A stretch of 61,401 bases of DNA, counting the filler, from Sanchytrium tribonematis (taxonomy: Eukaryota), in assembly GCA_018985235.1 (NCBI GenBank). It is 8 parts of 8 records of this genome, joined end to end, with 100 filler letters (N's around TTAATTAATTAA, not from the genome) between each part and the next. Parts side by side here need not be neighbours in the genome. Positions count along the whole stretch, not along the records: positions 1 to 21,530 come from JADGIG010000092.1; positions 21,631 to 24,587 come from JADGIG010000944.1; positions 24,688 to 27,641 come from JADGIG010000945.1; positions 27,742 to 30,681 come from JADGIG010000946.1; positions 30,782 to 33,717 come from JADGIG010000947.1; positions 33,818 to 55,342 come from JADGIG010000093.1; 2 more parts are not named here. One strand, given 5' to 3'. This document shows positions 852 to 55,342 of the stretch, piece by piece. How positions within the stretch are numbered: the stretch's first letter is position 1; each line of letters starts with the position of its first letter. Position numbers and translations under genes: made by a program. The notes beneath the pieces are model-generated. The model had not been told where the DNA came from. It did not search any database and saw only the letters and a program-made list of their open reading frames with translations.

Positions 852-2190
852 TTAATCATTCATCTTCACCATTTGCATTGTTATTTCATCGAATTTAAAT
901 TTTTCCAAAACTGTTTGGTATGGCTTTGGAGTAATCTTGTAGCAAACATGAAGTGGAATATCCATTGATGTCATTTCGTCGTGATTTGACCTATATAAAG
1001 AAAAAATACCCAAGAAAATATGACAAGATTGTTCGCATCACCGCATTATGTGTTACAATCAAACAATCGCTTTGCATTCTTTCGAGCTCTATAATGACGG
1101 GCCTTAATCTTTCTATGACATCCAAATAGCTTTCGCCGCCAATATATCGATATCTCAATTTGTCTTTTTTTCTAGCCAACAACTCATCAGGAAACTTGGA
1201 ATATATTTCATCGTAAGTCATGTGCTCACATAAACCTGCATAGATTTCATTTAGGGTCTTTAGAGTTTTTATTTCAAACTTTTCAGGAAGATATTGACAT
1301 GTTTGAAAGGTCCTTTTCATTAACGAGGTCCAAACCAATAATTTGCCATTAGGATACTGATCTGCTATAAAAGCAGATACAGCCTTACCATAAGCTCTAC
1401 CTCTCATGGTCAGTTGAGGATCACCACCAATTCTGTTAGTAACATTGTATTCCGACTCACCATGTCTGGTAATCCAAATCGATCTTTCATGTATGTGGAT
1501 ATTCATTAAGTAGAATACTATTTGGGAAGGTGTGAAACCTTGAATATTGTGTGCAATAATTTTCCTGCCGACGTTAATGACTTTAACATAACTCAAATTA
1601 TTGTTTTCTTCATAATCCCCGATGGGCTGATATACCTTTTCATAATTTTCCATTCTCTGTTGGAAGTCTTTCATGGCAGCCTCTGGCTCCATGTTTATAT
1701 AATCTGGTGATCTTAATTTCATTTTCATATTCTGCTCCAAAACTTTCTTGTCTGTGCAAATTGATTCTAAAAACAAAACCGGCATCTCGTTATCATCCAA
1801 ATGCTCGAGAATCATTTTGCGCCTCTCTATTGTGGTATTAGTGGCATCGTGAATTCCCACCTTGTGTCCTGGTAGATTTAACCAATGTATCAGTTCATTT
1901 AGTGTCTCCATGGCAATTGCATCTCTTTGATTTTTGCCTTGGGAATTTGAATTGTCAAAAAAGGAAAAGTTGGAAGAAAGATTTGCATTCAATCTTCTTG
2001 TATTACCTGCATTAAAAACCTTACTGGTTGTGCCAATCCAATTTAGATAGTGCATCAATTTTTTGCTGATGTATGATTTGCCTCTTGCTGGTAGTCCACA
2101 CAAAATCACTATGAGTTTGACTTCTTCAGAGTTGATTTCTGATATGCTGTCTAGATCTGGACTTTGAAATAAATGAAGGTCCAGATTCAT
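852..2190 (-). CDS. 6-phosphofructo-2-kinase/fructose-2,6-bisphosphatase (2 exons: 2190-1010, 990-852)
   Basis: GLPARGKS, DATNTT, RHGES and GGESY motifs; splicing 991-1009 restores the conserved C-terminus (DIPLHVCYKITPKPY). Confidence 0.9.
991..1009 (-). other. 19-nt spliceosomal intron
   Basis: gtattttttctttatatag; removal gives YFLG-SNHDEM in frame. Confidence 0.9.
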
Positions 2191-2271
2191 TGTATCAAAA
2201 AATAAACAACAATGTTGTCTTCTAACAAAATCTTTTTATTAAGCCTGATTTGTATATGCCTTGAAGTAAGA

Positions 2272-2955
2272 TCAGAGTTGAATAATAAATGGATTGAAAT
2301 TAGTATGGGTATCGTAAAAGGAGATATCGTCGCGAGTCTTTAAGAATTCAGTAATATGATGAACAATTGGGCCCATTATGACAAGCCAGATAGATTTTAC
2401 ACAAAAACTAGTACAGGCTGTTAAGACAAGAGTATCGATTGGTATGGTATCAATATAAGCTATCGTATAAAACAAAAATGTGTCGAGCAATTCGCCAATG
2501 AAACTAGACACTAAAGATCTCTTCCAACCTCCTCTCCCATTCATCCATACTTTCATTTTTGCAATAATATATATATTGGCAAATTTTCCAATTAGAAACG
2601 ATAATAAAGCACCAAAAATAACTCGAATCGGTTGACTATATACATTTTCTAGCGAAATTTGATGAGGCCAGGTTTTTGCTGGAGGTAAAATTATTAAAAT
2701 ATAAGTCATTAGGTTTGTGAATAATAGCGCAAAAAATCCGTACCAGATAGCTCTTCTTCCTGCGGAATACCCATACACTTCTGTGAGAATGTCATCAAAA
2801 AAATATGACATTGGAAAAAATATTAATTTTCCTTCCATTTCAAAGGGCCCCAGTTGAATTTGCTTAGCTTCAGCTACAAAATCACTAGCAAGAAAAAGAA
2901 CAACAAAAGCAGTTATAAGAAACCGCTCGTATCGCAAGTCATTTTTAAATTTCAT
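2272..2955 (-). CDS. yhhQ: Queuosine-precursor transporter, VUT/YhhQ family
   Basis: FPMSYFFDDILTEVYGY..RRAIWYGF, RSLVSSFIGELLDTFLFY, C-terminal YDTHTNFNPF; multi-pass membrane protein. Confidence 0.88.
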   Translation of the reverse strand: MKFKNDLRYERFLITAFVVLFLASDFVAEAKQIQLGPFEMEGKLIFFPMSYFFDDILTEVYGYSAGRRAIWYGFFALLFTNLMTYILIILPPAKTWPHQISLENVYSQPIRVIFGALLSFLIGKFANIYIIAKMKVWMNGRGGWKRSLVSSFIGELLDTFLFYTIAYIDTIPIDTLVLTACTSFCVKSIWLVIMGPIVHHITEFLKTRDDISFYDTHTNFNPFIIQL

Positions 2956-3124
2956 CCGTACTCCTTTTCAAAATCGTTGTGTTCGATCTAAAATTATACT
3001 TGGTAAGAATGAAAATAAAAGAATGATACTGGATCTGGATTAATTCATTGAAATCACAGGCTGAAAAATTCAAGGAATTTCAACAAAAAGCCCCTCAGGT
3101 TTCATTTGATTTTAATTCTTATCA

Positions 3125-5363
3125 ATGAATATACCAGGAAAACCGCAAAAGCTTGACGAAAATGCTATCAAGTCTGTATTAAAAAAGAGGCCGGATCTTG
3201 TGGATTTAAAGTTGCCAACTTCTCAAGAGCTTGAAATTCTTGAAGTTTTGGGTAAAGGTAATTTTGGACAGGTTTTCAAAGCACGAGTCAAACCACCAAA
3301 TGTTCCAGAAGCTTCAATTTGTGCTATTAAAGTTGTCTTTTTAAAAGAAAGCGAATTGCGCGAGATTCTTTTGGAAGTTGATATTTTGAAGATGTGTCAG
3401 CATCCAAACATTACCCAATATTGTTGCCTATTCAGAAAAGAATTGGACTTATGGATTGCTATGGAATTGTGCGATGCTGGCGGTATGGATCATATATATC
3501 ATATTTACCCTAAACCCCTTGATGAGATACTTGTTGCAACCATTATCTACGAATCTCTTCAAGGCTTGGATTATCTGCACAGTCTATACCTAATTCACAG
3601 AGATATCAAAGCAGGAAATATTTTATTAAATACTCAAGGTCAAATAAAGCTTGCAGATTTTGGTGTCAGCGCAAAATGTAGCACTAATCACCTTGCTAAA
3701 TCGTTTATTGGAACCCCATATTGGATGGCTCCAGAGGTCATAGCTAGTGAGGAGGACCATTCTAATAAATACGGCCCAAAATGTGATGTTTGGAGTATTG
3801 GTATTACTGCCATGGAATTACTAGATAAGCAGCCTCCTTTTGCAGATATTCATCCTTTTACAGCACTAAAAATTATCTTGAAAAATGAACAACCTATCGT
3901 GCTTCAAAAGAAAAGAAGCAGACAGTGTCAAGACTTTATTAATTACTGCATTACACGAGACATCAAGCGGCGTCCAACTGCGAAAGAAGCGTTACTCCAC
4001 CCTTATATGGCTCAATGCACATCACAAGACAGAGGTGCAATCATACGAGATATGCTTAAGGCAGTTGGTAAAACAACCACTGTGCCACTCAAAAAAGACT
4101 CTTCTGAAGATGAGCTCCCAATACCAAATTTGGAACCTGTAATTTTTATTTATATAGAAGCAAGTCCATAAACCAGTGCCAACTATGCGCGTAAAAGGCG
4201 ACGTTGTCAATACAAAAGTTAGTTTTGTTGTTCAAGAAAGTGTCACTTGCGTTGATTTTTATGGTCCATATCTAATTATCGGAACAGAAACTGGTTTAAT
4301 TGTTGGTGATGCAATGGATCCTAATTTTGAATATTTCGGCTATGTCATTCCCAAGGTTGCATTTAAAGACTTATTTGTCTTGGAAGATTTTGGAGTCATG
4401 CTTGCAATTTGCGGACGAACTCAAAACGTAAGGCAATATAAATTGAGCACCTTAAAGAGACTTATACGGTACGGTATGACAGGAGACGAACAATACTTGA
4501 AAGCCAGTGACAGTCAACTCAATTTAGATCAATCATTCTTGAAAACTATGTTTACAAAATCATCTGATCAAGATTATTTTATAAAGATACCGAATAGTAG
4601 AGATACCACAATGATGCAACTAAGTAAAACAGCACAAAGCGCATTTGTTGGAATTACAAGCAAAAGTATGATAACTCTGTTAGAATGGGCCAAATCTCCT
4701 TACAATAGATTTATGAAAACAAAAAGCTTTTGGCTTCCTGAATCACCAAAATTTTTTCAGCTTATTAACAACGGCAAATATATATCTAAAATAATAATGG
4801 GATACACCAACGAAGCGAATTCGATTGACTACGAAACATCAAAAGTTACTGATATTAACGTCAATAGATCTGTATTGAAGAGTGCTAAAAAAGGGAAATG
4901 GGTCCATTACAATCAATTACCTTTTGATGATGAATTTTTCAACACTTTAAAAAAGAGAGCTCAAGAAAGTATGGAAGACAAAATTAGCGTAAAAATGCAG
5001 GCTGTTTTGAAAAGCAGTGGAGAAGGTGCTTTGAAAAGTGTGAATTGTATAGCGACTTTTGGTCAGTGTAGTTATTTTGCTAATGATAACGGGGAATTAT
5101 TAGAAAACAGCAATTTGTTTGAATGGCGAAGTGTACCGAACAAAATTGTGACTGTCAAGGACTTACTGGTAATCGGATATCTTGATGAGGGCATAGAGGT
5201 TTTTACTTGGTCTGGAAAGCCTCTTCAATTTTTTCCATTTTCAGATGACTGTAAATATAAAACAAGTTGTCAGAAAGGCAAATATCTTGTCGCGATTAGC
5301 CAGAGAAAGAAAAAGGAATGTTATATCGATTTGATCGGTGATGCAAGTAAACCACTAGCCTAA
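3125..5363 (+). CDS. STE20/germinal-centre (MAP4K-like) kinase with C-terminal CNH-like domain (exons 3125-4138, 4158-5363)
   Basis: GKGNFG, HRDIKAGN, DFG and GTPYWMAPE motifs; the second ORF resembles a CNH domain; one 19-nt intron joins them in frame. Confidence 0.85.
4139..4157 (+). other. 19-nt spliceosomal intron
   Basis: gtaatttttatttatatag; phase 0, joins NLEP to KQVHKPVPTM. Confidence 0.88.
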
Positions 5364-5415
5364 ATTATTTGAAATAAAATTGTTTTAAAGACTTTGTGGC
5401 TTGATACATTCAACA

Positions 5416-10146: not shown

Positions 10147-13100
10147 ATGTATACACTTGAACCTCATTGTAGGTTGCCAACGAAAGCAAAGCCAATCAAA
10201 TTAAGCCTTCCTTCCTTTAAAATTACACAAGATGTAGTAGATCACATACTAAAATACGACTATTCAGAAATTCCTATTCAGAAATTCCAAAATACCCAAT
10301 ACTTTCCCGATACCCCAGAAATCGCAAAAGAATTCAGCCAGACTATTTCCGAGGTATTTCATGAATGTCAATTTGCACAAGATAGCGACGTTCAGTCGTC
10401 ATGTCGAAAAATCAGACTTTCAAATATTTCTGAAACTTTTGAAAACACAATGCTATCACATTCATCAGACAATACAGAACCAGCCAGAAAGAGACAAAAA
10501 CTGATTGCTGTAGATCTATCATCCAAAAAATTGCTAATGGACCTTGAATCTAGGGATTTTGATTGGGATTCTCTGAATATCACTGAAATTAATGTAATAT
10601 GCCAAGAAATGATTCAAACAAACGCAGATGTTAAGGTTTTGTTGAAGGGAATGCTAAGGCTAATTGGAAATGTTAACCTGTCATGGTTTTATAAGTCTAA
10701 GACTAAATTGCCTCTGTATGTGTATGAGCAGCTTTTACCATTGGATGACAAGATATTGAATATTTTATTGGAGCACTATCCCAGAGAAACTGATAGCTGT
10801 ATTTATTATATACTTCAAAATGTTAAAGATCTACACCGCCAGCTCATGCTTCTGATTACATGTGTTAACGCTAACCAAGAAGCTGTTGCAGAAGTTGTGA
10901 AACAATTACTTCAAGATATAATTCTAAACAAAAACTTCATCGCGAATTTGATTTGTGAAGCCTATAAAAATTCTCATATTGTGGAATTGCCAAATTCGAA
11001 TTCCCTACTAAAGCAACTTTTACATGGTCTTTGTCTGTACTCTAAAAATATGAAAGACTTCAAAATTAAAAGCGCATGGACAGACATAGTGTTTAATGCT
11101 TTGTCTCCGATAACTCCTCAATATGGGCCAACTGAATTGAATATCGATGTGTTTCCAAAAAACACTCTTTCACTATGGGAATCAATTTTAGGCCCCGATT
11201 TTAAGTTTTCCGAGGCAGAAATGTCTTCCCAAAATCTCCCAGACTGTATTTTCCAAATTGTATTGCTGCCGTGTATTAAATTGTTGCTGAAACCGATTTT
11301 AGATATCAAAAGCTCAAACCAGATACAGTTGAGAACTAAAGCTACCAAATTGCTCAAATTGTGTTGCAAATTGCTTAAAGGCGATTTAAAAGACAAATTA
11401 ATCATGGTGTTAGTGAATATGACCAAAGACGCCAGCCCTTTAGTTCGTGATGTAGCATTAGAAGCCTGTTTGCACTACAGCCTCAATGAAAATATGACTA
11501 GACTTTGTTTAGAGAGACTGAATGACACAAGCCTGAAGGTTAGAAAAACAGCTATTAAATTTGCAAATGAACTGTATAACCAGAATGGAAACCCATTAGC
11601 TTGTGCTTTGATACTCAAGGCGGTATTAGATGATGATATTCAGCCGTTAATATTGAAAACAGTGAAAAATATGTTACTATTGCAAATACCTATTACCAAG
11701 TCCTACTTACAATTAAACGAGAAAGAAAAATCTCAAGTTATCAAAAAATCCTCACTTATAAGTGAGTGCCTAGTTTATTTGTATAAAAATAAGAATTCAG
11801 ATCCAACCATTTATCTTAAAACCTTTTATGAAAATGTTAAAGGAAATCAGGTAGATCTTTTTTTCCAACTAACTGTTGATTGTATGATGGATAAGGGAAT
11901 CGACTTAGTCTACTGCAATGTTTTAAGTAATATCAATCCCAAATGGTGTCTCGTATATAAAAATGAGCTTTTAAAGAGGCTTTTTGCCGATAATGATGAC
12001 CAAGGCGTAGTAATTTCGCTTCTTCAAATTCTTAGCAACCTTTTTGAATTTGATAGCAGCCTTGACAAAGAGTTTGAAAATCAAATGGTAACCGCTTTGC
12101 TGGATTTTATACAATATGGAAGCGCTCCTGTCATCGAACATGGATTAAAAATTACAAGTTGTATAATCTCCATTGTTGGAGAGCTTGAAGTTTCAAGAAT
12201 TCAAGGATTGTTGGAAATGTTTCTGACTAATGCACAGCATTCTTTTCAGATGAGAGATGCACTTGTGTCTGGACTAACAATGAGATATTCACAACTTGCT
12301 GAAATGCTTCCAATGAAGGAATCAGAAATGGCAAGTTTATTTGAGTCATGGATTCCAATAAACGAGCATATCGCAAGAAGAGCTCTTTGTGACCTTTGCC
12401 TTGGATTTCCAAAATATATGCTAGTTTTGGAATTGAATTGCGATACTGCCGTCAACTCAGAAATGTGCTTAAAATGCATATTAAATTTCTTTCAAAATGA
12501 AAAATCTAATGCGCTGCAAATCTTAACAGTCGATGAAATTGATAATGATGTGGTTATAATGCTAAATAAGTACTTCCCATTATTGAATCAAATAAGTCAA
12601 AATTTTATTTCTGAACTTCGGATTTTCGAATTGTTATCGCAAATATTGTTCATATGTATAAATCAAAGTATGATTCACCCCAAGCAGGTAATTTCTTTTC
12701 ACTCAGGCTTGTAATTTATTCTTTCAGATGCTGATCAACCATCCCATAAAATTTGCTCGTCACGATGCATTTAAAATAATGACTCAAAAATATCCTCAAA
12801 TGCTAGTTGTTGAGGTAAAACATACTAAATTAAAATTCGGATCTATAGCAATTAATGATGGTTTCAGTAGTGTTTTTCAACCATTTTACAATCAATTGAG
12901 CAAAAAACTTCAAAAAGTTTTCATGAAAACAATTATACAAATGCTCGAAAAAGTGGATGAATTAGTTTGGATTGAATCTTTAATTACGCTGGACATGGAC
13001 ACCGAGTTTGCTCTCTCTAATCTGGTAAAACAATCAAAACACATGCTGATTGAAAATCAACATTTTCATGACTGTATTCAATTTGTAATTGGAGCCATTA

Positions 13101-13854: not shown

Positions 13855-15088
13855 TCACAACTTGGCTTTTTTTATTGCCTCTAACTTGTACTGCAGATCC
13901 TTTCTCAATTTCTCTTTTGGCTTCCATTCATTAAATGTTGTAATGAGATCAGACACCTCTTTTGCTAATTCAGCGTCTCGCTGTATTCGAGGATCAAAAA
14001 ATATTTCATGAAGTACTAAATAAGTTATAAATACTCCAGGGTAAGTGGTACATATTTAACTTTGTAGGTGCCTCGAAGGCATCAATTTTTAGATCCCTGG
14101 AGCCCAAAATTTCAGGACTATGTAAAAAGTCTATGGCCAATCTAAATACCGAGGATTCTTCGTATAAAGTGGAATGTCCTGTCCCCAAGAGTGCCCCTGC
14201 TATCAGATCACTAAGGTATACAAATAGATCTTTGTCGTTAATTTGCTTATTTCTCAATTTCACAGCAAAAAGGACTAATTTTAATAGAAAATCTTGATCA
14301 TCGTAGCCTTCATGATCGACATATAATGCTCTTAGAACATTTTTGTGATGCAAGCCACTAGCAAGAGACGAGTAAAGCGGCACAACCTGATCGAACCAAC
14401 TAGATACAAAAACGATTTTCACATTGGCATTCAAAACATCCTCAATGGCCTCGTAATATCTTTTTGATACAGGAGAATTTGGATTGTTAAAGTCAAACAA
14501 TTCTCTAGCGTTATCCTCCATTATTTTGGTATATGATTGTAAATATGGAAAAGGGCCATGACTTATTCCAGCCATAGCTAAGATACAGCATTTTTGATGA
14601 CTTATTATCCCAAGATGTATCAACTTGGCAATCAGCATCATTGATACTGGTGTTCCCTGAGAATGTGTAGCAATAAATATTTCGTCGGATTGCATAATGG
14701 TTTTTGCATGTAAGATAAGCTCATCAAAATGGCTTTCTACTCGAAATTCAATTTGACCTTGACACTCTAAAGTAATAGAAGTAATCTCAATTTCTTGTTT
14801 TTCATCTTTGCTCCATTCATTTAAAGATGAAGTCATCATCTCTGCGAATTTACTAGAAGTACCTGTTGGTTCTCCAAGAACTCTTTGCATGATAGAATTA
14901 GGAAACCATCCATGTATTCCAATAACAGTAATTTTTTTTAAAGTATTTGTTGAGGTTTCCTTCTTCTCATATGGTAGAAATAATTGAGTCCACTTGTGCA
15001 GATTAAAGTAATCAACGAGAGTTTGACGTCTTTGCTTGGGTATTTGTTTGACTCTTTTATAAATTGGCAAAACAAGATTTTTTGACAT
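13855..15088 (-). CDS. YML020W-like alpha/beta-hydrolase ending in PTS1-like AKL (exons 15088-14035, 14015-13855)
   Basis: IGIHGWFP, GEPTGTS, HSQGTPV, DQVVPLYS and GHSTLY motifs; spliced end reads PWILHEIFFDPRI..WKP..LQYKLEAIKKAKL. Confidence 0.75.
14016..14034 (-). other. 19-nt spliceosomal intron
   Basis: gtatttataacttatttag; restores a 53-codon terminal exon. Confidence 0.88.
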
Positions 15089-15243: not shown

Positions 15244-17236
15244 ATGACATTTTCCAAGCTTTATCAATTTGGAATAGTTTATGAACCAAATTTTTTGGAA
15301 CGGACCGAAAATTACAATTTACAAGAATTTAGAAGTATAAAACAGGAATACACAGATCGAATGAACGGTTACAAATTAGTTGTAAATGGGACGGCGAAGG
15401 AAAATATTGAATCTGATGTTGCTGATAAATCTTTTGTTTCTTTAAACAACGACACTCTGGACTTGCCTGATGTCAAGAGTAGTCCAACTCATCATCAATT
15501 TCAAAGCATTCAAGTTCAAACCTCGTTCATAAATGCAATGGAACCAAAATCTCCTATGCAATTTTTTAATCAATCTGATATATACCTAGAAGCCGAAGTC
15601 AGTGTATTGTTAGAAAAAGAAAAACAAGCTACCGATCTAGGACCAGGTATGGAAGACAATATTTTATCAGAGGGTGAAGATTTAATTACCGAATTGGAAA
15701 AAAGATCTGAAAGTTCATTTTCGCCTGCAAAAATAGAGCCAGATCTTGTCAGTGAACCAAAACAAACTGAAATTCAAAAGGAATCCAGATTTGGTGAGGT
15801 TCTTAATATCGAAAAAACACCCATTTCAGATAGAAAAGATAGCGCTTCTTCTATAGGTCCATTTAAGTCAGAAATTTTAAACAAAATCGCAATTAAATTA
15901 GATGCTGCGACTATAAAAAGTGGAATGACTTCTTCTCCTCCTAAATCTGAAGAAGCAAGTTTCGCAGATTCAATGAAAGACTATTTGTTCGAGCTTAAGA
16001 GGCTAGTAGAATTTAATCAAGATTTGATGAACAAGCCATATTCAAATATACATCCAGTCTCAACCCCTAAGATAGTGGAATATTCAACTAGCGATATTGA
16101 TGACATTGAGTCGCCCATTCCAAAGCGAAGACAGAAAAAGGTCACCCCGAAACAAAAGAAAAGAGTTGCACTTTCTCCTAAATCATCTACCAAAAAGCAA
16201 AAAGTAATACACCTGGAAGAAAATATAGCCCACAATACCCCACTACCAGATCCAGCTTTGGAGTTTTCAGACAGAAACAGTTTAGATGAGGAAATAGCGC
16301 AACTTTTAGAGGAACCCGACCAGATAAGTAATGTTGTTGCAAAAAGTTCAGCAAATGTTCCTGAAAAATCGGTCACTTTTCCCAATGAGGAGATAATACC
16401 CACACGCGAGTTTTCAGAAAACAAAATTTTGGTCAACCCGCAACTGGAATCTTTCCAAGCTGTTGATCCTATTGATGATTTTTTAGACAACCCACTAGCG
16501 GAATCATATCAAGATGCTAAGCCTATAGACGATTTTGATGAGTATCCAGAAAATGCTCAAATGAAAACTCCTCAATCGAAACGTGGAAAAAGCTTAACTA
16601 CGAAAAGGAGAAAAATTGCTAACAGGGAGCCTAATGAACCCTCCAAACATGGAACGAGGAATAGAAAGAAAAAACTTAGAAAATCATTTATAGATAACGA
16701 ATGGGTCGATGCAGACAATGTGACTCCTAAACAGATGAACGTGGTTCAAAATATGGGTGATGGTGAATATGTAGTGGTAGAAGAAATCGAGAAAACAATC
16801 AATGGGGTGTATAGGAATCAGCATTCTGCTCCTAAAAAACCAAGAAAATCATCTTTGCAAAAGAAAACCGCTGAAATAATACCATTTAAAGTAGCACCAG
16901 CAATTTGTAAAAAGCCCACGGCTTCTCAAGTAAAAGAGGCTGTCAAAAATTCCGAGATCCAAGTATTCATTGACTTAAAGGAGCAGGACAACTTTCATAT
17001 TGGGTACATCGGCTTAACCAAAGGCACGGAGTTCGAGGGTAAAGAGATCGGAAACGCTGCCTATATAGTGGCCAGTGGAAAAGTACATTTTAAAAGTGAA
17101 GAAACAGATATTCTTGCAAAACAAAAGGACTCTTTCATGGTACAAAAAGGTAATTTTGATTCATAAAGGAAAAGAGTTTTCAATGGTTTGTCATAGTCCA
17201 GTCTGCATTTTGCAGGTTCGGATAATTTATGATTAG
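15244..17236 (+). CDS. CENP-C/Mif2-like protein: long disordered region plus C-terminal cupin (exons 15244-17149, 17169-17236)
   Basis: Low-complexity basic/acidic body; cupin-like AYIVASGKV..SFMVQKG-KEFSMVC completed by splicing. Confidence 0.55.
17150..17168 (+). other. 19-nt spliceosomal intron
   Basis: gtaattttgattcataaag; completes the cupin domain. Confidence 0.8.
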
Positions 17237-38037: not shown

Positions 38038-39208
38038 TTATTTTAATATTTTAGGCAACAAACTAGCAAATTTTAACACATGACCCAAATAAATACTTTG
38101 ACCCATATGCCCTACTCTAAAATATGGATCAATTTCTTTAAGCAGACCACCTGCAATAGAAAAACCATTTTTGCGAGAATTCTGAATAGTTGCAGGTACT
38201 TGAGGACTGTAAACTGCTGTCAAGGTATTCGAAGCAATGTTTTCCGACTCTGCGACAAGCTTTAATCCACAGTCCTTGATAACCTTCCTAAAAGAAGTCG
38301 CGCAATTTTCATGATCTCTCCAGCGTTTTTCTAAGACTACTCTTGCTTGTACAATACTTGGAAGTTCATCACTTCTCTGCAATTTGAATAAAACTCTCAA
38401 TGCAGACTCCAGAGAAATAATTGTGTTTACAGCTGGTGTGCAGAAGTAAGATGGCTTACCTTGCTCATATGCGTTATGGATGGGAAGCCATTTTTTTAAA
38501 TTGCAATAATATGACGGTATTTTAGACTTTTTATCAAGCAATTTCTTAATTAATCAAATATACCATAGCCCTTGGTGAAGTCCAGCAGATGCTTAACCCA
38601 GCTAATGCACCAATAGCTTTTTGGCTGCCAGTCATCACGAAATCAATGTCAAGCTTTTCAAGATCCAATCTTTCACCGCCAACTGAACAAACACCATCGA
38701 CTGCAATCAAAATTTCCGGAAATTTACTTCTCAATGGGATGACATAATCTTCTAAATTGCATCTAACTCCTGTTGAAGTATCGACATGGGTGAATGTAAC
38801 CGCCTCACAATTCAATTTCTCGACTTCTCTCAACACGTCATCAACAGATGGTATTTTTCCATAACCGGAAAATAAATACTCGTGCGGTAAATCTGAAGCT
38901 TCAAACACTTCTTTGAAAGATCTTCCAAAGTATCCCTGGGAGACAATCAACGTTTTTTGATTGCTTATAAAGTTGTTGGTGAATATTTCCCAGCCCAGAG
39001 ATCCAGACGCTGTAATAACAAAGGGCTGCATCTCTTGATTCAAGACAAGTAATCTCAACATTTTAATTGCATTGCCAAATTTTTCGATAAATCTGCTATC
39101 CACATGAGAGACTGCCGACTCGTTAACAAGAACACTGGGGTCAACTTCTATAGGGCCTGGAATCAACAGAATGTTGGCTGTGGATGAAGCCTGGTCTAAA
39201 GAATCCAT
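38038..39208 (-). CDS. AGX1: Alanine-glyoxylate aminotransferase, class V (exons 39208-38564, 38544-38038)
   Basis: LLIPGP, HVDTSTGV, DGVCS, TGSQKA and FRVGHMG motifs; in-frame 19-nt intron join. Confidence 0.88.
38545..38563 (-). other. 19-nt spliceosomal intron
   Basis: gtatatttgattaattaag; SPRAM-KLLDKK. Confidence 0.9.
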
Positions 39209-39274: not shown

Positions 39275-41558
39275 ATGAGTTTAATTGTTGCTTCGCATAA
39301 ATTACCGATTGAGTATCACAACGGCGATTATAGAGAACAGCCTCGACACAAGGCTTTTTACTCCGGGATTGCATCTCTGAAAGCGCAAGATATTACATAT
39401 GTTGGTTGCTACAGCGATAACAATGATGTTTTACGCAAACCCACCAAGCAGCTTCCAAATAACATGATGCATATCGATGTTGATCCATCTGTTCATTCGG
39501 ATTTCTATCATGGGTATTGCAAACAGGTCTTGTGGCAAATTTTACATTATCAGCCATATTCTCCACAAATTAAGGAAAATTCATTTTTTGAGGCCTACTG
39601 TAAGGTGAATAGAATGTATGCCGAGGAAATAATTAAAGTTTATAAGAAAAATGATATGGTATTTGTGAACGATTATCATTTATTTTTAGTTCCCTTTTAT
39701 TTGCGGCAAAAAATTCCAAATGCCAAGATTGGGTTTTTTTTACATTCTCCTTTTCCTTCTTCTGAACTGTTTAGATGCCTCCCTCAACGAACTGCACTAT
39801 TAAAAGGTGTATTAGGATCGCATTTAATAGGATTTCAAAACTATTCATACGCCAGACATTTTTTGTCTAGTTGTACGAGAGTTTTGGGTTTAGAGTCTAG
39901 CCCAGGTGGAATTGATCACGATCATCATGTTTCGATCGGTATTTTTCAAATTGGCATCAACGTTGCTCTGACAGAAAAATTGTGTTCTCACCCACTTGTA
40001 GAAGATAAGCTGAAAAAATTACGCGAGGTTTACAAAAATAAGATCGTTATTGTGGGACGGGAGCGCCTTGAGGCCCACAAGGGCGTAGTTCAGAAACTGA
40101 AAGCTTACGAAAGATTTTTGGAACTTTATCCTGAATATCAAGAAAAAGTGGTTTTAATTCAGATGACGAATTCGGGCGACAGAAAATTGGAGACAAAAGT
40201 TAATGATCTGGTTATGAAAATTAACGGGAAGTACGGTTCTGTATCCTTTAGTCCGGTTCTTCACATCCACAAGATGTTGCCTTACGATGACTATCATGCT
40301 CTATTAAGGTTAGCAAATGTTGGTTTGTTCACCCCTGTTAGGGATGGGATGAATATTGCATCACATGAATTTATTGTTTGTCAAAATGACAACCACGCAC
40401 CACTTGTTTTATCTGAATTCACTGGTACTGCTGGTTCTTTACCGGGGGCCTTGCTTGTAAACCCTTGGGATTTTAATGGCGTAGCTAAATCAATCCACAC
40501 TGCTATAAATATGTCGCTTGAAGAAAGAAAAACCAAACATCTTTTTATGCTTGATCATGTTTCTAGATTCAATTGCGACAAATGGGCTCAAAATTTTGTA
40601 AGCGAAATGCTATTCACTTCTGAAAATAACGGAAGCACAAGTGGAACTACCCAGAAGCTTGTCATTGACGATATAGTTGAAGTTTATAAGAAGTCAAACA
40701 AAAGGCTCTTGTTATTGGATTACGATGGGACTTTGACAAAAATTGTCAATAATCCACAATCTGCTCTTCCCACTGCGAAATTGCTAAAAGCTTTAGAAAA
40801 ATTGTGTAGCAGACCAGATACTGTAGTTTACATTATTAGTGGGAGAGATCAAGAATTTTTAGAAAGCCACCTTGGCCATATAAAAAATATCGGATTGAGT
40901 GCAGAGCACGGAAGTTTTGTAAAACATCATAACACCAAGAAATGGATAAATTTAATTGAAAAGATAGACATGGGCTGGCAGAACGAAGTCAGAGAAATTT
41001 TTGAATATTACACAGAACGAACTCAGGGATCTTTTATTGAACAGAAAAGATGTGCACTTACATGGCATTATCGTCTTGCTGATCCAGAGTTTGGACAGTT
41101 TCAGGCCAAAGAATGCCAAAACCACCTCGAAAATAGCATAAGTGGAAAGCTTCCTGTTGAAATTTTAATAGGAAAGAAAAATTTAGAAGTTCGACCAGTA
41201 TCAATTAATAAGGTAGCTAATTTTAATGAAGGGAGAAATGGTGAAACGTATATTAGGAATACAAGTTGATTGTGATTTTATTTTTTGCGCTGGTGATGAT
41301 AAGACTGACGAGGACATGTTTAAAAGTCTTGGTCACATTATTAACCCTTCGCCCCGCACGTCAAGGTCTGCATCTTATAGCACTTCTCCACAATTTCCAG
41401 AAGCTAGAAAAAGTCCAACCTTGCCAATTGAGAACCTTAATGCCAAAAATGTTTATACTGTGGCAGTTAGCTCATCTCCAAGGTTTACCCATGCATCATG
41501 GCGTTTGGACACTTCAGACGATGTTGTAAATCTGCTTTCTTTAATTTCTTCAGAATAA
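39275..41558 (+). CDS. TPS2: Trehalose-6-phosphate synthase/phosphatase (exons 39275-41212, 41232-41558)
   Basis: GT20 domain plus HAD DYDGT, SAEHG and GDDKTDEDMF motifs; INK-GEMVKRIL after splicing. Confidence 0.9.
41213..41231 (+). other. 19-nt spliceosomal intron
   Basis: gtagctaattttaatgaag; restores the conserved NKGE motif. Confidence 0.92.
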
Positions 41559-45271: not shown

Positions 45272-48068
45272 ATGCCACTCGTATCTCCAAACGAAATCAT
45301 CAAATTACAACAAGTGACTAATAATATAAGAAACATATCTTTGTTTGCTCATGTAGATCATGGCAAAAGTAGTTTGGCGGATCACCTTATAGCTTCAAAT
45401 GGAGTATTTCATTCTAAAATGGCTAGCAAAATGCGATACCTTGACTTCAGAGAAGATGAAGTTGAAAAAGGCATTACCATGAAGTCCGCAGGCATATCTC
45501 TTATTTATGATTATATTAGTAATGAAAATAACCTTGAACGATACGTTTTTCATTTAATTGACAATCCTGGGCATTTAGATTTTATTCAAGAAACATTTTT
45601 AACTGCTTATTTGGCTGACGGTGCTGTTTTCTTAGTGGACGTTGTGGAAGGACTCACTTTATCTGCAAGAGGAATGCTCATGAAAATCTTGGATAACGGG
45701 ATTCCTCTTGTATTGGTTTTCAACAAAATGGATAGATTGATAATTGAGAAAAAGCTAACTCCAAATGAGGCATATGAAGTTCTATTGGCTCACCTTTCAA
45801 AAATCAACGACGCAGTTCTTGAATGGTATAAAGTGAATTCATTTGGTGCGGCCGATCCATTAGAAACTGATTGGTTTTCGGATTTTTTTCACCCTTTGAA
45901 GGGAAATGTTGTTTTTGCATCGGCATCCGATGGCTGGGCTTTTAGACCGTCAAATTTTGCGAAGCTTTATAGCCAATTATGGAATATTCCATACTCAAAA
46001 TTGCACAACATGTTGTGGGGAGCATTTTATCCAAATAAAGATGCGGAAGAAAAGGCTTCTCAGCTAAGCAAGTTGCCTCCCACTCTTTTAAGAAAAGCAA
46101 GAGAAGGAAAGTTATCATACTGTTCTGTGGAATGGATGTTTAAACCAATATGGATGATTTACTCTTCAGCTGGATCTGATGTCTTACCTGAAATGTCAAT
46201 TTCTTTAGAATCAATTTTAGCAAAGTTAAATATAAACCTTAACGGTAGAGATAAGACTCAGGTTTTTGGAAACAACAAAAATGTTTCGGTTAAGGATCGT
46301 GTCAATACTATATTTCGATATTGGTTACCACTAAGTAGATGCATTCTAGACACATCTGTAGAATGTTTTCCTGATCCAAACTTGTCATCTCGCTATCGAT
46401 TGCACAAGGTAATCGACAAAGGTAGTAAGTTTTCGAATTTATGGTTTGGTTGGAAATGGGGTTTATTAATTTATCCATCGAAAAGATTTGGGGGGCCAAT
46501 GCAAAATCTTACTCAAAAGTGGTCTTCTTCTCCTCCTTGGTGCAGCAGTTATAAAGGCGGATGGCAGAACTATGTATTTCATTCGATAATAGAAGAAGAT
46601 CAGGTGTTAGCATTTTGCTGCAAATTGATAACTTGCGATGAGAAGGACCTGATTCGTCCTGAGATTAATCTGCAATTATTAGAAGCAGAAATGGCCTTGA
46701 ACGAAAACAGCACAAATTCTACCAACTCTATCATTTTGGGAATTGTCCGGATGTATTCAGGTTACTTAAAACAAAATTCAGAAGCTTTTGTTACATTGTC
46801 AAAATCCAACATCGTACACAAAGTCAAAATCAAGAGCGTTTTTATCTTGATGGGTAGAGGCTATGCTCAAGTGCCTTTGCTTTATCCTGGTTCAATTGGG
46901 GCCATAGAATTTGAACCTGTTGAATCAATTGGTATGCAAATGTTTAAAATTTTCACACTCTCAAATTTGAAATCGGTTCCAAATTTAAGCTGTCATTCAG
47001 AAGAAGAAGAAAATGCATTGATTAAGGTTGCGTTAGAGCCAGAGGATCCTCGTCGCTATGAGGAATTTCAAAAGTCTCTAGAATGGCTCAACACAATTGA
47101 CCCAGCCATCGAAATAGAGCATTTGAATAGCGGAGAACATGTTTTAGTCTGTGCTGGAGAACTCCATCTTGAGAGATGTTTACATGACCTCAAATCATAT
47201 TCCAAAATGGGTATACAAACTTCAGAACCACTTGTACCATTTCGAGAATGCATTTTATCATCAAGTTCTTTTAAATGGACCACAGACGCTTTTGTCATAA
47301 CTATTGAATGTTTTCCTATTACAGATATTTCGTGGAAAGATGATGTTCCTTTCAAAACAGAGCAGAGTCTGAAGATTTTGACTCAGAGTTCTAAAAAGAT
47401 GGACACGTTTCTTTTGAGCGATTTAGATTTTGATTGCGGCTTCTTATCTGAATTAAAAATGGGGTTTCAACTCGCTGCGGCTAATGGACCACTCTGCGCC
47501 GAACCTTTAATGGGTGCAGCGTTTTTGGTAAAAGAAATTATAACGACTGCCTTAATCGATAATTACTCGAAGTATGTCACTTCATTCAAGGAAATGTTTT
47601 TGAAAGCTGTATTAAATTCTAGTCCTAGAATTGCCCTAGCTGTCTACGAAGTAGATATTGAAACCCTTCCAGAAAGTATTGGAAAGGTATATCAAGTCGT
47701 GTCCAAAAGAAAAGGTTGGGTATTGTCGGAGAAAATGATGGATGGATCTAATTATTTTACAATTAAAGCAGTGATTCCAGTTATTGAAAGTATTGGAGTT
47801 TCTGATGGTATTTCATTTTAATGTAGAAATCAGGAAGAAAACTTCCGGGGCTGCACATCCTCAATTATTTTTCACTGGGTTTCACCTATTAGAAGAGGAT
47901 CCGTTTTGGAAGCCAACCACTGCGGAAGAACTAGAGGACTTTGGAGATACATCAGATAAAGAGAATATGGCTCTCAAATATATTAATAGGGTCCGGAAAA
48001 GGAAGGGTCTTGACAAGGAACGTGATATAACAGACGGAGAAAAGTTATCTGGATCAAAAAGACAATGA
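45272..48068 (+). CDS. EFL1: Ribosome maturation GTPase Efl1/Ria1 (exons 45272-47807, 47827-48068)
   Basis: AHVDHGKS, RYLDFREDE, NKMDRL, GELHLERCL; SDE-IRKKTSGAAHPQL..EDPFW after splicing. Confidence 0.9.
47808..47826 (+). other. 19-nt spliceosomal intron
   Basis: gtatttcattttaatgtag; restores EIRKKTSG. Confidence 0.92.
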
Positions 48069-50798: not shown

Positions 50799-50882
50799 GG
50801 ATATCCCCTCGGGTGAATCGTTCCTTTAAAAAAAAATTTCTCTGTTGGCCAATCAAAGTTTCTAAAAATCCTGCAATAGATT

Positions 50883-51727
50883 TTATTCATCATGATTCAA
50901 TTTCTTTCTCTTTTTAGACGGCCGGGAAACTTTTTCACCTGAATCCTCAGATGCTGCATCGCTCACCTGCTTCTTATCTTCGTCTGAATCTGAAAAAGCA
51001 TGTGAGACTTTTTGAAGCATTTTATCGAAGGTTTGCAAAAAAGAAGTTTTCAATGAATTTCCAAAGTTCTCAATGACGTGACTAAATTCTTCTACTTGTA
51101 GCTGCTTCTCTTTGAAAAAAGAGACATTAAGTTCTTGTCTTGAGGCACCACGCTTCATATTTCTTTTGATATATTCATCATAATCTCTTACAATTCGAGA
51201 GATAAGATCAGATGTACTGACACCTTCATTATGAAATAATACCTTCGGTCCGTTGCGTGGGTAAAAATTTTCCTAATTTTTTGAGATGTCCGTAGACGTC
51301 GTCAACTCCAGCAGAATTGTAAGGGATGTCATCGTGGGCTACCAAATCGATTTTATGCTTAGCTAGAAATGCATCGTTAATTATCCAAGGCCCGATTACG
51401 ACCTCGTCTACCCATTTACAATGCCGCACTGCTACATGAATAATTTTGACCTTCCAAACGTTCGTCCTCATTCATAACCGTTTTGCCTTTATGCTCATGG
51501 GTATCTTTATCACTACATACTCCGACTATAAGGGTTGTATTCGGAAAGGCTTTCTTAACCTGTTCCAATTGCCTGGCATGTCCAAGATGGAACAAATCGT
51601 AGACGCCATCAGAATAAATTCGTACTGGTCTATCCTCTGGAATTTCAATAAGTTTATATAATGGCGAGGGCTTGATTTTCGGAACTGGTGGGAACTTCAC
51701 TTTGCCATTGGATGTTTTTGTTGACAT
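50883..51727 (-). CDS. PCT1: Choline-phosphate cytidylyltransferase (exons 51727-51451, 51431-51243, 51223-50883)
   Basis: [18 protein letters not shown]; spliced [13 protein letters not shown] and [20 protein letters not shown]. Confidence 0.92.
51224..51242 (-). other. 19-nt spliceosomal intron
   Basis: gtattatttcataatgaag; restores RTEGVSTS. Confidence 0.93.
51432..51450 (-). other. 19-nt spliceosomal intron
   Basis: gtcaaaattattcatgtag; restores [10 protein letters not shown]. Confidence 0.93.
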
Positions 51728-51907
51728 TAGAAGGGGAATTGAATTAGTTTTTCAGATTGCAATAGACTTTAACATCTGCAAGTCTAATCTTAATTTTTCA
51801 TTGTACAAAAGCATATGTCAATCAAAAACTCAAGCTAAGCTCTCTTCTCACACAATTTTTAGGTCTCCAATTTTTTTGCAGACAAAGGCATTGTGAAGAT
51901 TAATTTT

Positions 51908-52870: not shown

Positions 52871-52889
52871 TTGATTTCAAGGAGATTAT

Positions 52890-54099
52890 TTATTCTGAGT
52901 ATTCTGATCCAGACAGCAGATCATTAATAATATCTAAATTAAACTTAAATGTTTTGGAATTGTTTTGTACATCCAAATCAGGATTTTCGTCGTCCGAATT
53001 TGGGATTGGCGATTGCTTTAAAATTTTAAGCAAATCTGAAACATCAGCCTTGGGCTTCGGTTTTTCTACTCTAATTTTTGGCATTGATTTTGAATCCGCC
53101 AATTCTTGCGTGCCTTTTAGTATGCTCATTAAGCTTTTTTGATGTGCAACTGGAACGTCTTTCTTTTGAATATTTTCTTTTGATTTTTTTGCAATCGAGG
53201 TCTGGTCATCTAACATTAATTCTGTATAATCGTAATATGGTTTCAGTACTTCTTCCTCGGGCTTATGCTTTAACAAAGATAAAATTGTGGCAGCTGCGTC
53301 TTCTTCAAATCTTTCTTGCTCCTCTTCTGGCTCAAGCGTGCTTACAATATCTTGCGTAGGTACATTTGCGGACTTTTTAAGTTTGTTTATAAATCTTCTG
53401 ACTTGAGGCATAAATGGTACAACATTGAAATATCGAGTCCTGTCAGGATGTTTTTTGTGGTCGGTCGTAAAGCCGGGAATCGATTTGAGAGGTCTCCATT
53501 CAATTTTCTAAATGAGATTATAGTACTGAAATTTCTTTTCTGGTTTTGGTTTCGAAGGGATAATTCTCTGGCACATTTCCGGCATAGTACAGTCGAATAA
53601 CTTGATGCTGAACTCTTACTTCGACAAATTTAGCTTCTTTCTTTTTGGTATATATTAAATAAGGATACATATCAAAGCCAGTCTCTTCTTCAACTTCCCG
53701 GATAGCGCAGTCAACTGGTTTTTCTTCCGAATTGATTTTCCCACGAGGAAAAGACCAAGTGTTGCCTTTCCAACCACGAACTAGCAAGACTTTGTCTAGC
53801 GAGTCATTTAGAATAATTCCTCCGCAAACTGGCACTCGCAACTTGTATTTTATAAATTCTTTAAAGGCTCGCTCATGTTGCTGTGCCCAGTTATGTAAAA
53901 ATGGTAGATGCTCAAAAAATAACGATACAAATTCTTTTAAACTAAATTTTGGCAAACCAGCCTGTTGTTCCCGTACAAAATCTTCATAAAACCAGTGAGC
54001 TTGCTCAAGCTGGAAGCATAGTCTTTCAACTTTGGTTATTTCTGATTCAGGGAGATTAATTATAAATCTAGCACTTAAATCATCCAAGATTTGTTCCAT
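52890..54099 (-). CDS. DCP2: mRNA decapping enzyme Dcp2 (exons 54099-53527, 53507-52890)
   Basis: Box A LDDLSARFIIN..EQAHWFYEDF; Nudix GK..CAIREVEEETG; TRKEIS-KIEW after splicing. Confidence 0.92.
53508..53526 (-). other. 19-nt spliceosomal intron
   Basis: gtactataatctcatttag; restores KEISKIEW. Confidence 0.93.
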
Positions 54100-54141
54100 A
54101 CTGAAACCCCTTTATTGCTATAATTAATTTATTTCTCTTAT

Positions 54142-54660
54142 TCATTCTGACACGAACACCAAATAAATCGCTGGTAGCTCTAATTCAAAAGCTATGCCGT
54201 TTTCTTTAGCAGTAAGATCCAAATCCAGATATCTATTTGCGTATTTGACTGCCAATCTTGAAAGATCATATTCTTTCAAAATAAATTTGACAGTGTGTTC
54301 ATCAGCAATTAGTTTGACTTCTGACTGACCACTTAGAGTATTTAAAACCTTGATATATCTTTCTGATTTTGAAATAGCACCGATTGGCTCGATTTTAGTC
54401 CACCATTTTTCCTCTAGATTGTATGCAGGCAATGGCACTCCATCTATCATTTCAGTAAGAACTCCATTGTATGGGTTGTAATGCTGTTTTAACTCTCCAT
54501 TTCTGTTAAACAGGTGTGAGCAGTCTTTCCCTAAATATTTTCTCATTACCATGCCAAGAATTGGGCATCGAAATTTATCCTTTACATCATAGACTTTATT
54601 GTTCCAGACAATTAAATCATCTTTTGAATTTTCCATACTTGAAATCGTGTAAAACATCAA
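54142..54660 (-). CDS. CYB5D1: Cytochrome b5 domain-containing protein 1-like (ciliary radial-spoke associated)
   Basis: KVYDV..GKDCSHLF..NPYNG..WW..IG.ISKSERYIKVLNTL..LDLDLTAKENGI..PAIYL. Confidence 0.7.
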   Translation of the reverse strand: MMFYTISSMENSKDDLIVWNNKVYDVKDKFRCPILGMVMRKYLGKDCSHLFNRNGELKQHYNPYNGVLTEMIDGVPLPAYNLEEKWWTKIEPIGAISKSERYIKVLNTLSGQSEVKLIADEHTVKFILKEYDLSRLAVKYANRYLDLDLTAKENGIAFELELPAIYLVFVSE

Positions 54661-54680
54661 TGGCCAAATCTAAAGAAATT

Positions 54681-55342
54681 TTATTCCTGAACGTCCAAAA
54701 CCGAATGAATAACTAATTTAGCAAGAAAAACCTGTCCTACACATAGGGCATTTTTGTTGCTGCTTGGAAAGCAATTCACCGCAGTCTACGCATGTGCATA
54801 AATGTCGACATGGTAACACTATCGAGCTTCTTGGAGCTGCCATGCAAATGACACAATCATCTAATTCTCCTTCACCATTTTCTACACCATAAATGTCATT
54901 CATGTATATCCAGATTCCATCAAAATTGACTTTTTGATAAACATTGTTGAAGGAACCATCTATTAAATTGACGCTAAAGAGTGACATCTGAGAATTTGCA
55001 TGGAAGGGGGCCTTGTCTTCATCTATACTTGCCAATATATGAACGTAAATGGCATCTGACTTATCAAGATTAGAGATATCAATTTTGCAATCAAATTGTT
55101 TCTCGATATTTCGACTGGTTATGATAAAAGTTGAACTGTTACATTTTGGACTTATCTTTTGCGAGTCTTTTATAATTAAATTAGAAATTATAACTGATAT
55201 GTGTATGGAATCATAAGTTGATAATATTTCTGCATTAATTTCTACTTGATTTTGGTTTTTTATTAGTTTAAATTTATTATTTAAACAGAGATCTACATTT
55301 AATTGAACAATTCCAGTTGAATAGACATCATGATTAGATAAT
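54681..55342 (-). CDS. RING-HC E3 ligase, MGRN1/RNF157-like (5'-truncated; exons >55342-54732, 54712-54681)
   Basis: DIYG..CVICM..LPCRHLC.C..C..KCPMCRT-VIHSVLDVQE; frame open to the contig end. Confidence 0.8.
54713..54731 (-). other. 19-nt spliceosomal intron
   Basis: gtttttcttgctaaattag; gives a typical post-RING tail. Confidence 0.75.

What the first reader, a model, noticed from the sequence alone, without database searches (positions are those of the whole stretch)
991..54731. Fixed-length 19-nt spliceosomal introns in a fungal-like genome
Seen: every split conserved gene is repaired by one GT..AG intron of exactly 19 nt, 12 of 12. They are 991-1009, 4139-4157, 12688-12706, 14016-14034, 17150-17168, 38545-38563, 41213-41231, 47808-47826, 51224-51242, 51432-51450, 53508-53526 and 54713-54731. 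Several restore highly conserved motifs (EAVRHCKW, RTEGVSTS, NKGE, KEISKIEW, EIRKKTSG). Known: introns this small are established for chlorarachniophyte nucleomorphs (~18-21 nt) and Stentor (15-16 nt); typical fungal introns are far longer. Inference: a ruler-like, remodelled spliceosome that gene predictors would miss, splitting genes. I am not aware of this being described for a fungus.
Basis: partly seen in the sequence, partly recalled or inferred. Interest (0 to 1): 0.92.

Follow-up and report, generated by a model that had tools for sequence, protein, structure and literature searches.

The report
Nineteen-base introns in sanchytrid fungi
An algae-parasitic fungus of the little-known sanchytrid group has genes interrupted by segments exactly 19 bases long that are very likely spliced out as introns, shorter than any fungal intron I found described, and the public protein sets leave them in, so these genes appear cut short.

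Summary
Confirmed. All 12 segments are 19 nt with GT…AG ends, and removing each restores the reading frame. For 7 of 12, homologues fix the junction to the residue. Length-blind scans find no second length. The window is a sanchytrid fungus (nearest named relative Amoeboradix gromovi, 79–87% protein identity). The DCP2 intron sits where other eukaryotes have 47–270-nt introns, so it is a shrunken ancestral intron. Across the group the length is not fixed: orthologous introns in relatives are inferred at 19, 20, 22 and 22 nt, always with A at −6. The constant is the branch-to-AG distance. A. gromovi keeps most core splicing factors; Slu7 and Prp18 are missing from its annotation (a lead only). 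The sanchytrid genome paper called genes with an ORF finder and does not discuss introns. Splicing is not shown by RNA. The kind is known (Stentor, Mikrocytos, nucleomorphs), but I found no report for this phylum. The scan had no earlier sanchytrid note; it noted 26–29-nt introns in Rozella.

The parts
991..1009 (-). 19-nt intron, phase 2, in 6-phosphofructo-2-kinase/FBPase-2 (gene 852-2190; 439 aa spliced, 399 unspliced)
   Evidence: Best of all variants against an HMM of 117 homologues, 639.5 bits vs 593.1 unspliced. The A. gromovi orthologue lacks it and is collinear; unnamed P0125 stops at the same site.
4139..4157 (+). 19-nt intron, phase 0, joining kinase and CNH domains of a MAP4K (gene 3125-5363)
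   Evidence: Pfam domains on either side; frame and TNA motif. Exact ends not tested by homology; a 22-nt alternative from the same donor lacks the motif.
12688..12706 (+). 19-nt intron, phase 0, in a HEAT-repeat gene (SCC2-like; name recalled) (10147-13219)
   Evidence: Frame and motif; no PDB match to test the junction.
14016..14034 (-). 19-nt intron, phase 1, in a YML020W/YMC020W-like hydrolase gene (13855-15088)
   Evidence: Family from Atlas, score 0.96; found by the length-blind gene finder in all four settings; motif.
17150..17168 (+). 19-nt intron, phase 1, near the 3' end of a gene resembling CENP-C/Mif2 (name recalled, no Pfam support) (15244-17236)
   Evidence: Frame and motif only; adds 17 aa.
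38545..38563 (-). 19-nt intron, phase 0, in alanine-glyoxylate aminotransferase (38038-39208)
   Evidence: By my reading of the printed alignments, exon 1 runs to residue 207 of PDB 3zrp_A and exon 2 starts at 208.
41213..41231 (+). 19-nt intron, phase 0, in TPS2 trehalose-6-phosphate phosphatase (39275-41558)
   Evidence: Exon 1 aligns to residue 190 and exon 2 from 191 of PDB 5dx9_A. A. gromovi is intronless and collinear here; an unnamed relative has a 22-nt intron at the same site.
47808..47826 (+). 19-nt intron, phase 1, in EFL1/RIA1 GTPase (45272-48068)
   Evidence: By my reading of the printed alignments, exon 1 ends at residue 1038 and exon 2 starts at 1039 of PDB 5anb_K.
51224..51242 (-). 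19-nt intron 2, phase 1, in PCT1 choline-phosphate cytidylyltransferase (50883-51727)
   Evidence: Best of 7 variants by 41 bits against an HMM of 93 homologues; 20 nt at the same site in an unnamed relative.
51432..51450 (-). 19-nt intron 1, phase 1, in PCT1
   Evidence: Best of 26 variants, 354.5 vs 345.1 bits for a 22-nt alternative; absent and collinear in relative P0251.
53508..53526 (-). 19-nt intron, phase 0, in DCP2 decapping enzyme (52890-54099)
   Evidence: Best variant, 358.4 vs 325.5 bits unspliced. The same site holds 47-270-nt introns in 14 of 47 distinct metagenomic contexts; 19 nt in A. gromovi and 22 nt in P0122.
54713..54731 (-). 19-nt intron, phase 1, at the end of a C3HC4 RING gene (5' end cut by the contig end; stop at 54681)
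   Evidence: Pfam zf-C3HC4_3 match stops at position 44 of 49 at the donor; frame and motif. Weakest case: adds only 6 aa.

Best explanation
These 12 segments are 19-nt GT…AG inserts in genes of a sanchytrid fungus, each with T eight and A six bases from its end, and they are very likely ordinary major-spliceosome (U2-type) introns shrunk close to the smallest size the machinery can likely handle. Shown: length, ends, motif, frame restoration, exact junctions in 7 of 12, and an ancient intron position in DCP2. Inferred: the A at -6 is the branch nucleotide of a degenerate yUnAy motif, so the lariat loop would be 14 nt. There is no room for a separate polypyrimidine tract, and the first AG after the branch A is always the acceptor (12 of 12). 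The 3' splice site would therefore be set by distance from the branch point. Total length is set by how far the donor-to-branch stretch has eroded: 19 nt here, 19-22 nt in relatives. Inferred cause: deletion bias in a compact parasite genome running into a lower limit for splicing. Lead only: loss of the second-step factors Slu7/Prp18, which yeast can spare when branch and AG are 9 nt or less apart, may lock the branch-to-AG distance.
For: GT..AG and 19 nt in 12 of 12. T-8 and A-6 in 12 of 12 vs 11% background; pyrimidine at -5 in 11 of 12; A at +3 in 10 of 12; G at exon -1 in 9 of 12. Length-blind scans peak only at 19. Exact homology junctions for DCP2, PFK2, PCT1 (two), TPS2, EFL1 and AGX1. 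Intronless orthologues in relatives are collinear at three sites. Four distinct orthologous introns in relatives, read from their read-through tails, all force A at -6. The DCP2 site is a phase-0 intron of 47-270 nt in 14 of 47 other contexts. DNA contigs of run X1 show no indel over 1-18000 or 37500-55342, which hold all 12 (X1 may be the source, so not independent). The sister species has the core spliceosome. The layout matches Stentor, whose branch A is at position 10 of 15 (PMC9505925, passages). Slu7 is unnecessary at a branch-to-3'SS distance of 9 nt or less (PMC10158995, passage).
Against: Splicing and branch use are not shown by RNA. Only 12 introns from 60.7 kb; the 95% lower bound on the share of 19-nt introns among detectable ones is about 78% (0.05 to the power 1/12, by hand). 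Five junctions lack a homology test. The length-blind gene finder recovered only 5-6 of 12 and made many other calls. Lengths in relatives come from back-translating peptide tails, not from DNA. Two of them (DCP2: 19 and 22 nt) rest on only 2 exon-2 codons; TPS2 (9 of 12 codons) and PCT1 (7 of 7) are firmer. The Slu7/Prp18 absence comes from an annotation covering about half the proteins of a genome about 92% complete. One recalled identifier for Prp16 also returned 0 although Prp16 was found by another. C. merolae lacks Slu7/Prp18 yet has long branch-to-AG distances (PMC10158995, passages).
Confidence: 0.88

Rival explanations
1. Real introns, but 19 nt is only the peak of a narrow range (about 18-22 nt, as in chlorarachniophyte nucleomorphs), and this window happened to sample one length.
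For: Relatives show 19, 20, 22 and 22 nt; one unnamed relative appears to have 20 and 22 on the same 76,843-bp contig. n is only 12. One weak 17-nt candidate at 8118-8134.
Against: 12 of 12 at one length; no high-scoring sense-strand pair at 18, 20 or 21 nt; no AT-rich TNA candidate at 20, 22 or 23 nt that lengthens an ORF.
Confidence: 0.3
2. A remodelled spliceosome measures total intron length from the 5' splice site, and each sanchytrid species has its own set length.
For: Donor-to-branch distance is also constant in the window (14 nt in 12 of 12), and the one measured A. gromovi intron is 19 nt too. Slu7, Prp18, U1C and Prp39 identifiers gave 0 hits in the A. gromovi annotation.
Against: One relative appears to splice both 20- and 22-nt introns with the same branch position. 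Most core factors are present, including U1-70K, U2AF and SF1.
Confidence: 0.2
3. The breaks are assembly or amplification errors, or pseudogenes.
For: Sanchytrid genomes in print come from whole-genome amplification (PMC8371127, passage); the window is a join of 8 contigs.
Against: Errors would not give GT..AG, one length and an invariant TNA. Contigs of X1 show no indels there. Relatives break at the same sites with different sequence. The DCP2 site is an ancient intron position.
Confidence: 0.01
4. The segments stay in the mRNA and are bypassed by +1 ribosomal frameshifting, or are removed by a non-spliceosomal route (Ire1-type cleavage, DNA excision).
For: All 12 shift the frame by +1. Ire1-spliced HAC1 introns of about 19-20 nt exist in fungi (recalled).
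Against: Homologues need the whole 19 nt gone, since exons abut with no extra residues. Ends and branch motif are spliceosomal. The genes are unrelated housekeeping genes, not bZIP factors. No joined form appears in the DNA contigs.
Confidence: 0.02

Closest known systems
15-16-nt introns of heterotrich ciliates (Stentor coeruleus; PMC9505925, passages)
   Same: GT..AG, AT-rich, GTA start, branch A six bases from the 3' end (position 10 of 15, 11 of 16), near-uniform length, largely complete spliceosome.
   Different: Here 19 nt with a 14-nt loop rather than 10, plus an invariant T at -8. Independent origin, in a fungus. RNA support exists for Stentor, not here.
16-17-nt introns of mikrocytids (Mikrocytos mackini; PMC10245619, section 7 read)
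   Same: Parasite with uniform ultra-short introns (217 of 224 are 16 bp) in housekeeping genes.
   Different: Mikrocytids have a strongly reduced spliceosome (17-19 proteins), highly conserved intron sequence and no introns in metabolic genes. Here interiors vary (median 12 of 19 positions alike) and metabolic genes (TPS2, PCT1, AGX1, PFK2) carry introns.
18-21-nt introns of chlorarachniophyte nucleomorphs (Bigelowiella natans; PMC6009652, passages)
   Same: Closest in length; GT..AG.
   Different: Nucleomorph introns span four lengths, are dense (3.1 per gene) and have no discernible branch A. Here there is one length, about one intron per 4-5 genes and a clear branch motif.
Microsporidian short introns (Encephalitozoon cuniculi about 25 nt; Rozella about 30 nt; PMC6349667, passages)
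   Same: Short GT..AG introns in reduced parasites on the fungal side of the tree.
   Different: Longer, very few (16 plus 20 in E. cuniculi), mostly in ribosomal protein genes right after the start codon. Here they are shorter and lie towards the 3' end of genes (mean relative position 0.73).
Myxozoan and dicyemid short introns (median 22-27 bp; PMC13644364, parts 1-2 of 3 read)
   Same: Parasite-associated shrinkage, donor reduced to GTa, U2AF retained.
   Different: Broader lengths. There the putative branch A moves away from the AG as introns lengthen; here it stays at -6 for 19, 20 and 22 nt.

Membership tests
U2-type (major) spliceosomal introns | GT at the 5' end and AG at the 3' end | tested here: met
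   12 of 12; last three bases TAG 7, AAG 4, CAG 1.
U2-type (major) spliceosomal introns | Branch-point motif (yUnAy core; consensus recalled) upstream of the AG | tested here: met
   T-8 and A-6 in 12 of 12, pyrimidine at -5 in 11 of 12; background 11%. A-6 forced in 4 of 4 distinct relative introns whose length could be read.
U2-type (major) spliceosomal introns | Removal restores the conserved protein | tested here: met
   Exact for 7 of 12; frame only for the other 5.
U2-type (major) spliceosomal introns | Position shared with ordinary introns of other eukaryotes | tested here: met
   Tested on DNA for DCP2 only: 14 of 47 contexts with a 47-270-nt intron at the same site, 23 continuous, 10 unresolved.
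U2-type (major) spliceosomal introns | Major spliceosome proteins encoded in the genome | tested here: inconclusive
   No genome is held for the window. Present in the sister species' published annotation.
U2-type (major) spliceosomal introns | U1, U2, U4, U5 and U6 snRNAs able to pair with the sites | not testable with these tools
   No Rfam match in the window; the rest of the genome is not available.
U2-type (major) spliceosomal introns | Removed from mRNA through a lariat | not testable with these tools
   Needs RNA data of this organism.
Ultra-short uniform-length introns (Stentor/Mikrocytos kind) | One or two lengths under about 21 nt make up nearly all introns genome-wide | tested here: inconclusive
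   12 of 12 in 60.7 kb and no other length found; genome-wide not testable; relatives 19-22 nt.
U12-type (minor) introns | Long conserved 5' splice site and branch sequence (consensus recalled) | tested here: not met
   Positions 4-11 vary freely.
Introner elements (recently transposed introns) | Near-identical copies at new positions | tested here: not met
   Pairwise identity 9-17, median 12 of 19, including six fixed positions; the DCP2 site is ancient.

The most novel reading that the evidence does not exclude
Sanchytriomycota are an independent origin of fixed-geometry minimal introns, the shortest in Fungi. Nearly all introns of this species are 19 nt, the branch A is locked at -6 because Slu7 and Prp18 were lost, and sister species form a natural 19/20/22-nt series in which only the donor-to-branch stretch changes. 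About a fifth of the genes in the public sanchytrid proteomes would then be truncated or split.
Probability: 0.3. Interest if true: 0.8.

Novelty: new member of a known kind. Interest (0 to 1): 0.62.

Why it matters
What sets the smallest spliceable intron is an open question. The known cases under 21 nt (heterotrich ciliates, mikrocytids, nucleomorphs) are far from yeast and human. A fungus with 19-nt introns and a mostly intact spliceosome can be compared directly with yeast structures and genetics. Its relatives vary the 5' part while the branch-to-AG distance stays fixed, which separates the two constraints. In practice, 11 of roughly 50 genes in this window are cut in the ORF-only public proteins. 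Gene counts and gene-loss inferences for this phylum may need redoing with a minimum intron length under 19 nt.

Tried and rejected
No whole genome is held, so no genome-wide histogram or snRNA search was possible. Sequencing runs: one DNA holder, X1, possibly the source; no RNA holder listed. The metagenome scan with DCP2 gave 80 loci, none close (best segments 61% identity or less); they served only for the intron-position test. Rfam on the window: 0 matches. PDB search for the SCC2-like exon: 0 hits. Pfam on eight exon pieces gave no support for the SCC2-like, CENP-C-like or YML020W-like junctions. Candidates rejected: 43218-43236 (19 nt, inside an intact WD40 ORF, no T-8); 9927-9944 (18 nt; by my hand reading it joins no ATG to an ORF, and it lies beside a plus-strand ORF); 41198-41216 (alternative at TPS2, contradicted by the PDB alignment); 28-nt alternative at PCT1 (lower HMM score); 28-nt alternative at the RING gene (would cut into the Pfam-matched RING end). 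ORF handovers near 22135 and 28453 show no matching intron. One relative tail (P0121, DCP2) stops inside the intron, so its length could not be read. Literature searches: 'Sanchytrium/Amoeboradix/intron' (22 papers, listing seen); 'sanchytrid + intron' (2 papers; in both, the word occurs only in the reference list); 'Sanchytriomycota + spliceosom' (0 papers); general searches showed no report of 19-nt fungal introns in the listings. The library lacks most subscription journals. Two supplements of PMC8371127 (MOESM1 PDF, MOESM4) were too large to read and could mention introns.
Full report
Observation. All 12 segments are 19 nt and read GT…AG on the coding strand. Removing each gives one continuous ORF; left in, each causes a stop 2-18 codons after the donor. 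The window is a join of eight contigs separated by spacers, with 60,701 real bases, G+C 34.5% and very dense genes. The 12 introns lie in 11 of roughly 50 genes, on the two longest contigs.

New anatomy. This is the core of the eukaryotic branch-point motif (consensus recalled). Only 35 of 322 19-nt GT..AG pairs in the window have both bases, and shuffling the interiors gave an invariant A column in 2 of 200,000 trials. The donor is mostly GTA (10 of 12) after an exon G (9 of 12), and the acceptor is always the first AG after the A. Interiors otherwise differ (median 12 of 19 alike), so they are not copies of one element.

Is 19 the only length? Three scans were given no length preference. A gene finder with a flat 12-90 nt prior peaked only at 19 (5-7 of 15-23 calls in four settings), though it recovered only 5-6 of the 12 and made scattered other calls. 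An ORF-lengthening scan over 13-40 nt found 12 AT-rich TNA candidates at 19 and 0-2 at any other length, many of them alternatives at the same breaks. A splice-end score passed 11 of 171 sense pairs at 19 and none at 18, 20 or 21, which argues against hidden in-frame introns. That score and the TNA filter derive from the 12 themselves. Twelve of twelve puts the 95% lower bound near 78%; it does not show strict uniformity genome-wide.

Are the ends right? Every break has other frame-restoring GT..AG pairs, so I tested junctions by homology. The 19-nt choice scored best for DCP2 and PFK2 against HMMs of 117 homologues each and for both PCT1 introns against 93 homologues. Exons abut without a gap on solved structures: TPS2 at 190|191 of 5dx9_A, EFL1 at 1038|1039 of 5anb_K and AGX1 at 207|208 of 3zrp_A (the last two read off the printed alignments). 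Five junctions rest on frame and motif only. Contigs of DNA run X1 show no insertion, deletion or joined form over the two stretches that hold all 12; X1 may be the window's source.

What organism? The nearest named relative is Amoeboradix gromovi: 87% for DCP2 and 80% for PFK2, and 79% for a TPS2 hit from the same source with the same contig-name style, whose species I did not look up (I treat it as A. gromovi). Other named fungi follow at 68% or less, with Blastocladiomycota next for DCP2 and PFK2. A. gromovi belongs to Sanchytriomycota, parasites of algae. I place the window in that phylum and do not assign it further.

Relatives. Public proteins of sanchytrids were called by ORF finders on DNA, so they read into their introns, and the tails give intron lengths (the method returned 19 for the window's TPS2 control with 12 of 12 codons). 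DCP2: 19 nt in A. gromovi and 22 nt in unnamed P0122, each on 2 codons only. TPS2: 22 nt in unnamed P0400 (9 of 12 codons). PCT1 intron 2: 20 nt in unnamed P0251/P0519 (7 of 7). In all four the tail forces A at -6, and T at -8 is forced or allowed. P0400 and P0519 both report a longest contig of 76,843 bp, so one organism probably has both 20 and 22. Relatives lack the window's PFK2, TPS2 or first PCT1 intron and are collinear there, which confirms those junctions. A. gromovi breaks at two other sites instead. At the DCP2 site, 14 of 47 distinct metagenomic contexts carry a phase-0 intron of 47-270 nt, 23 are continuous and 10 unresolved. That intron is therefore ancient and has shrunk.

Machinery. 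No genome of the window's organism is held. The published eggNOG table for A. gromovi (supplement of PMC8371127; the stored copy is cut, but its last part appears to be already in a second sheet) lists U1-70K, U1A, Luc7, U2AF1, U2AF2, SF1, SF3B1, Prp8, Brr2, U5-40K, Snu13, Prp2, Prp16, Prp17, Prp22, Cwc25 and Isy1. Slu7 and Prp18 gave 0 hits by name, KEGG and KOG identifier; U1C and Prp39 gave 0 by KOG identifier. Identifiers were recalled, one Prp16 identifier failed although Prp16 is present, and only about half the proteins are annotated. In yeast, Slu7 is unnecessary when branch and 3' splice site are 9 nt or less apart (PMC10158995, passage). Its loss would fit a branch locked at -6, but this is a lead only, and the same review notes that C. 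merolae lacks these factors despite long distances.

Mechanism. Most likely these are conventional U2-type introns eroded to near the minimum. A short GTA donor and a TNA branch motif would be read by the usual machinery, giving a 14-nt lariat loop, with the acceptor set by a fixed six-base distance. The sequence facts are shown; branch use, the role of deletion bias and the Slu7/Prp18 link are inferred. A deletion bias meeting a functional floor is the explanation proposed for mikrocytids (PMC10245619, section 7).

Comparison and novelty. Uniform ultra-short introns are known from Stentor (15-16 nt, branch A also six from the end; PMC9505925), mikrocytids (16-17 nt) and chlorarachniophyte nucleomorphs (18-21 nt, no visible branch A; PMC6009652). 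Myxozoans reach a median of 22 (PMC13644364) and microsporidia about 25 (PMC6349667). A survey of 644 fungal genomes gives Allomyces 1.30 introns per kb (PMC8476143, passages); this window has roughly 0.25 by my estimate. The sanchytrid genome paper predicted proteins with TransDecoder on contigs; 'intron' occurs only in its references and 'splic' not at all in its main text. Searches found no description of sanchytrid introns; two supplements and most subscription journals could not be seen. All 17 window ORFs looked up were in the public protein set exactly as the unspliced DNA reads. Verdict: a real feature, a new and independent member of a known kind, and to my search the shortest introns reported for a fungus. 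Interest 0.62.

Noticed in passing
the 12 introns: They lie towards the 3' end of their genes: mean relative position 0.73, 7 of 12 beyond 0.8, p about 0.003 against uniform (0.008 without the 5'-cut RING gene). Intron-poor microsporidia show the opposite, 5' bias.
   Followed up: partly
window 997 (inside intron 991-1009): Run X1 shows two alleles at about equal depth. The variant inside this intron falls on the free N between the invariant T-8 and A-6. Paired alleles elsewhere suggest two haplotypes.
   Followed up: no
P0124 and P0401 (PFK2 and TPS2 of the nearest relative): Both lack the window's intron but break 10 and about 20 codons further on, likely at introns the window lacks: intron positions differ between sanchytrids.
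   Followed up: partly
21531-21630, 24588-24687, 27642-27741, 30682-30781, 33718-33817, 55343-55442, 58376-58475: The window is eight contigs joined by 100-base spacers (N runs around a 12-base all-frame stop), so neighbours across them are not real.
   Followed up: yes
P0121, P0400, P0519: DCP2, TPS2 and PCT1 of an unnamed relative all report a 76,843-bp longest contig, which suggests the same gene neighbourhood as window 39275-54099.
   Followed up: no
22577-23920 (+): ORF with a Tle1-like phospholipase catalytic domain, Pfam PF09994, E 2e-17; its origin was not examined.
   Followed up: no
2275-2967 (-): Vut_1 transporter (PF02592, E 3e-36), a family I recall as mostly prokaryotic; possible horizontal transfer, untested.
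   Followed up: no
27742-28170 (+): Degenerate partial copy of the end of ORF 28453-28884 and of part of the peroxidase ORF 28978-29832; a decayed duplication or an amplification chimera.
   Followed up: no
24688-27640 (+) and 60329-61399 (+): Three leucine-rich-repeat-like ORFs, two in tandem with Pfam support for one of them, apparently intronless where seen.
   Followed up: no
8118-8134 (+): Weak 17-nt GT..AG candidate with the TNA motif over the stop of the ankyrin gene. It would add 5 aa and overlaps the opposite-strand DnaJ stop, so it is probably chance.
   Followed up: partly
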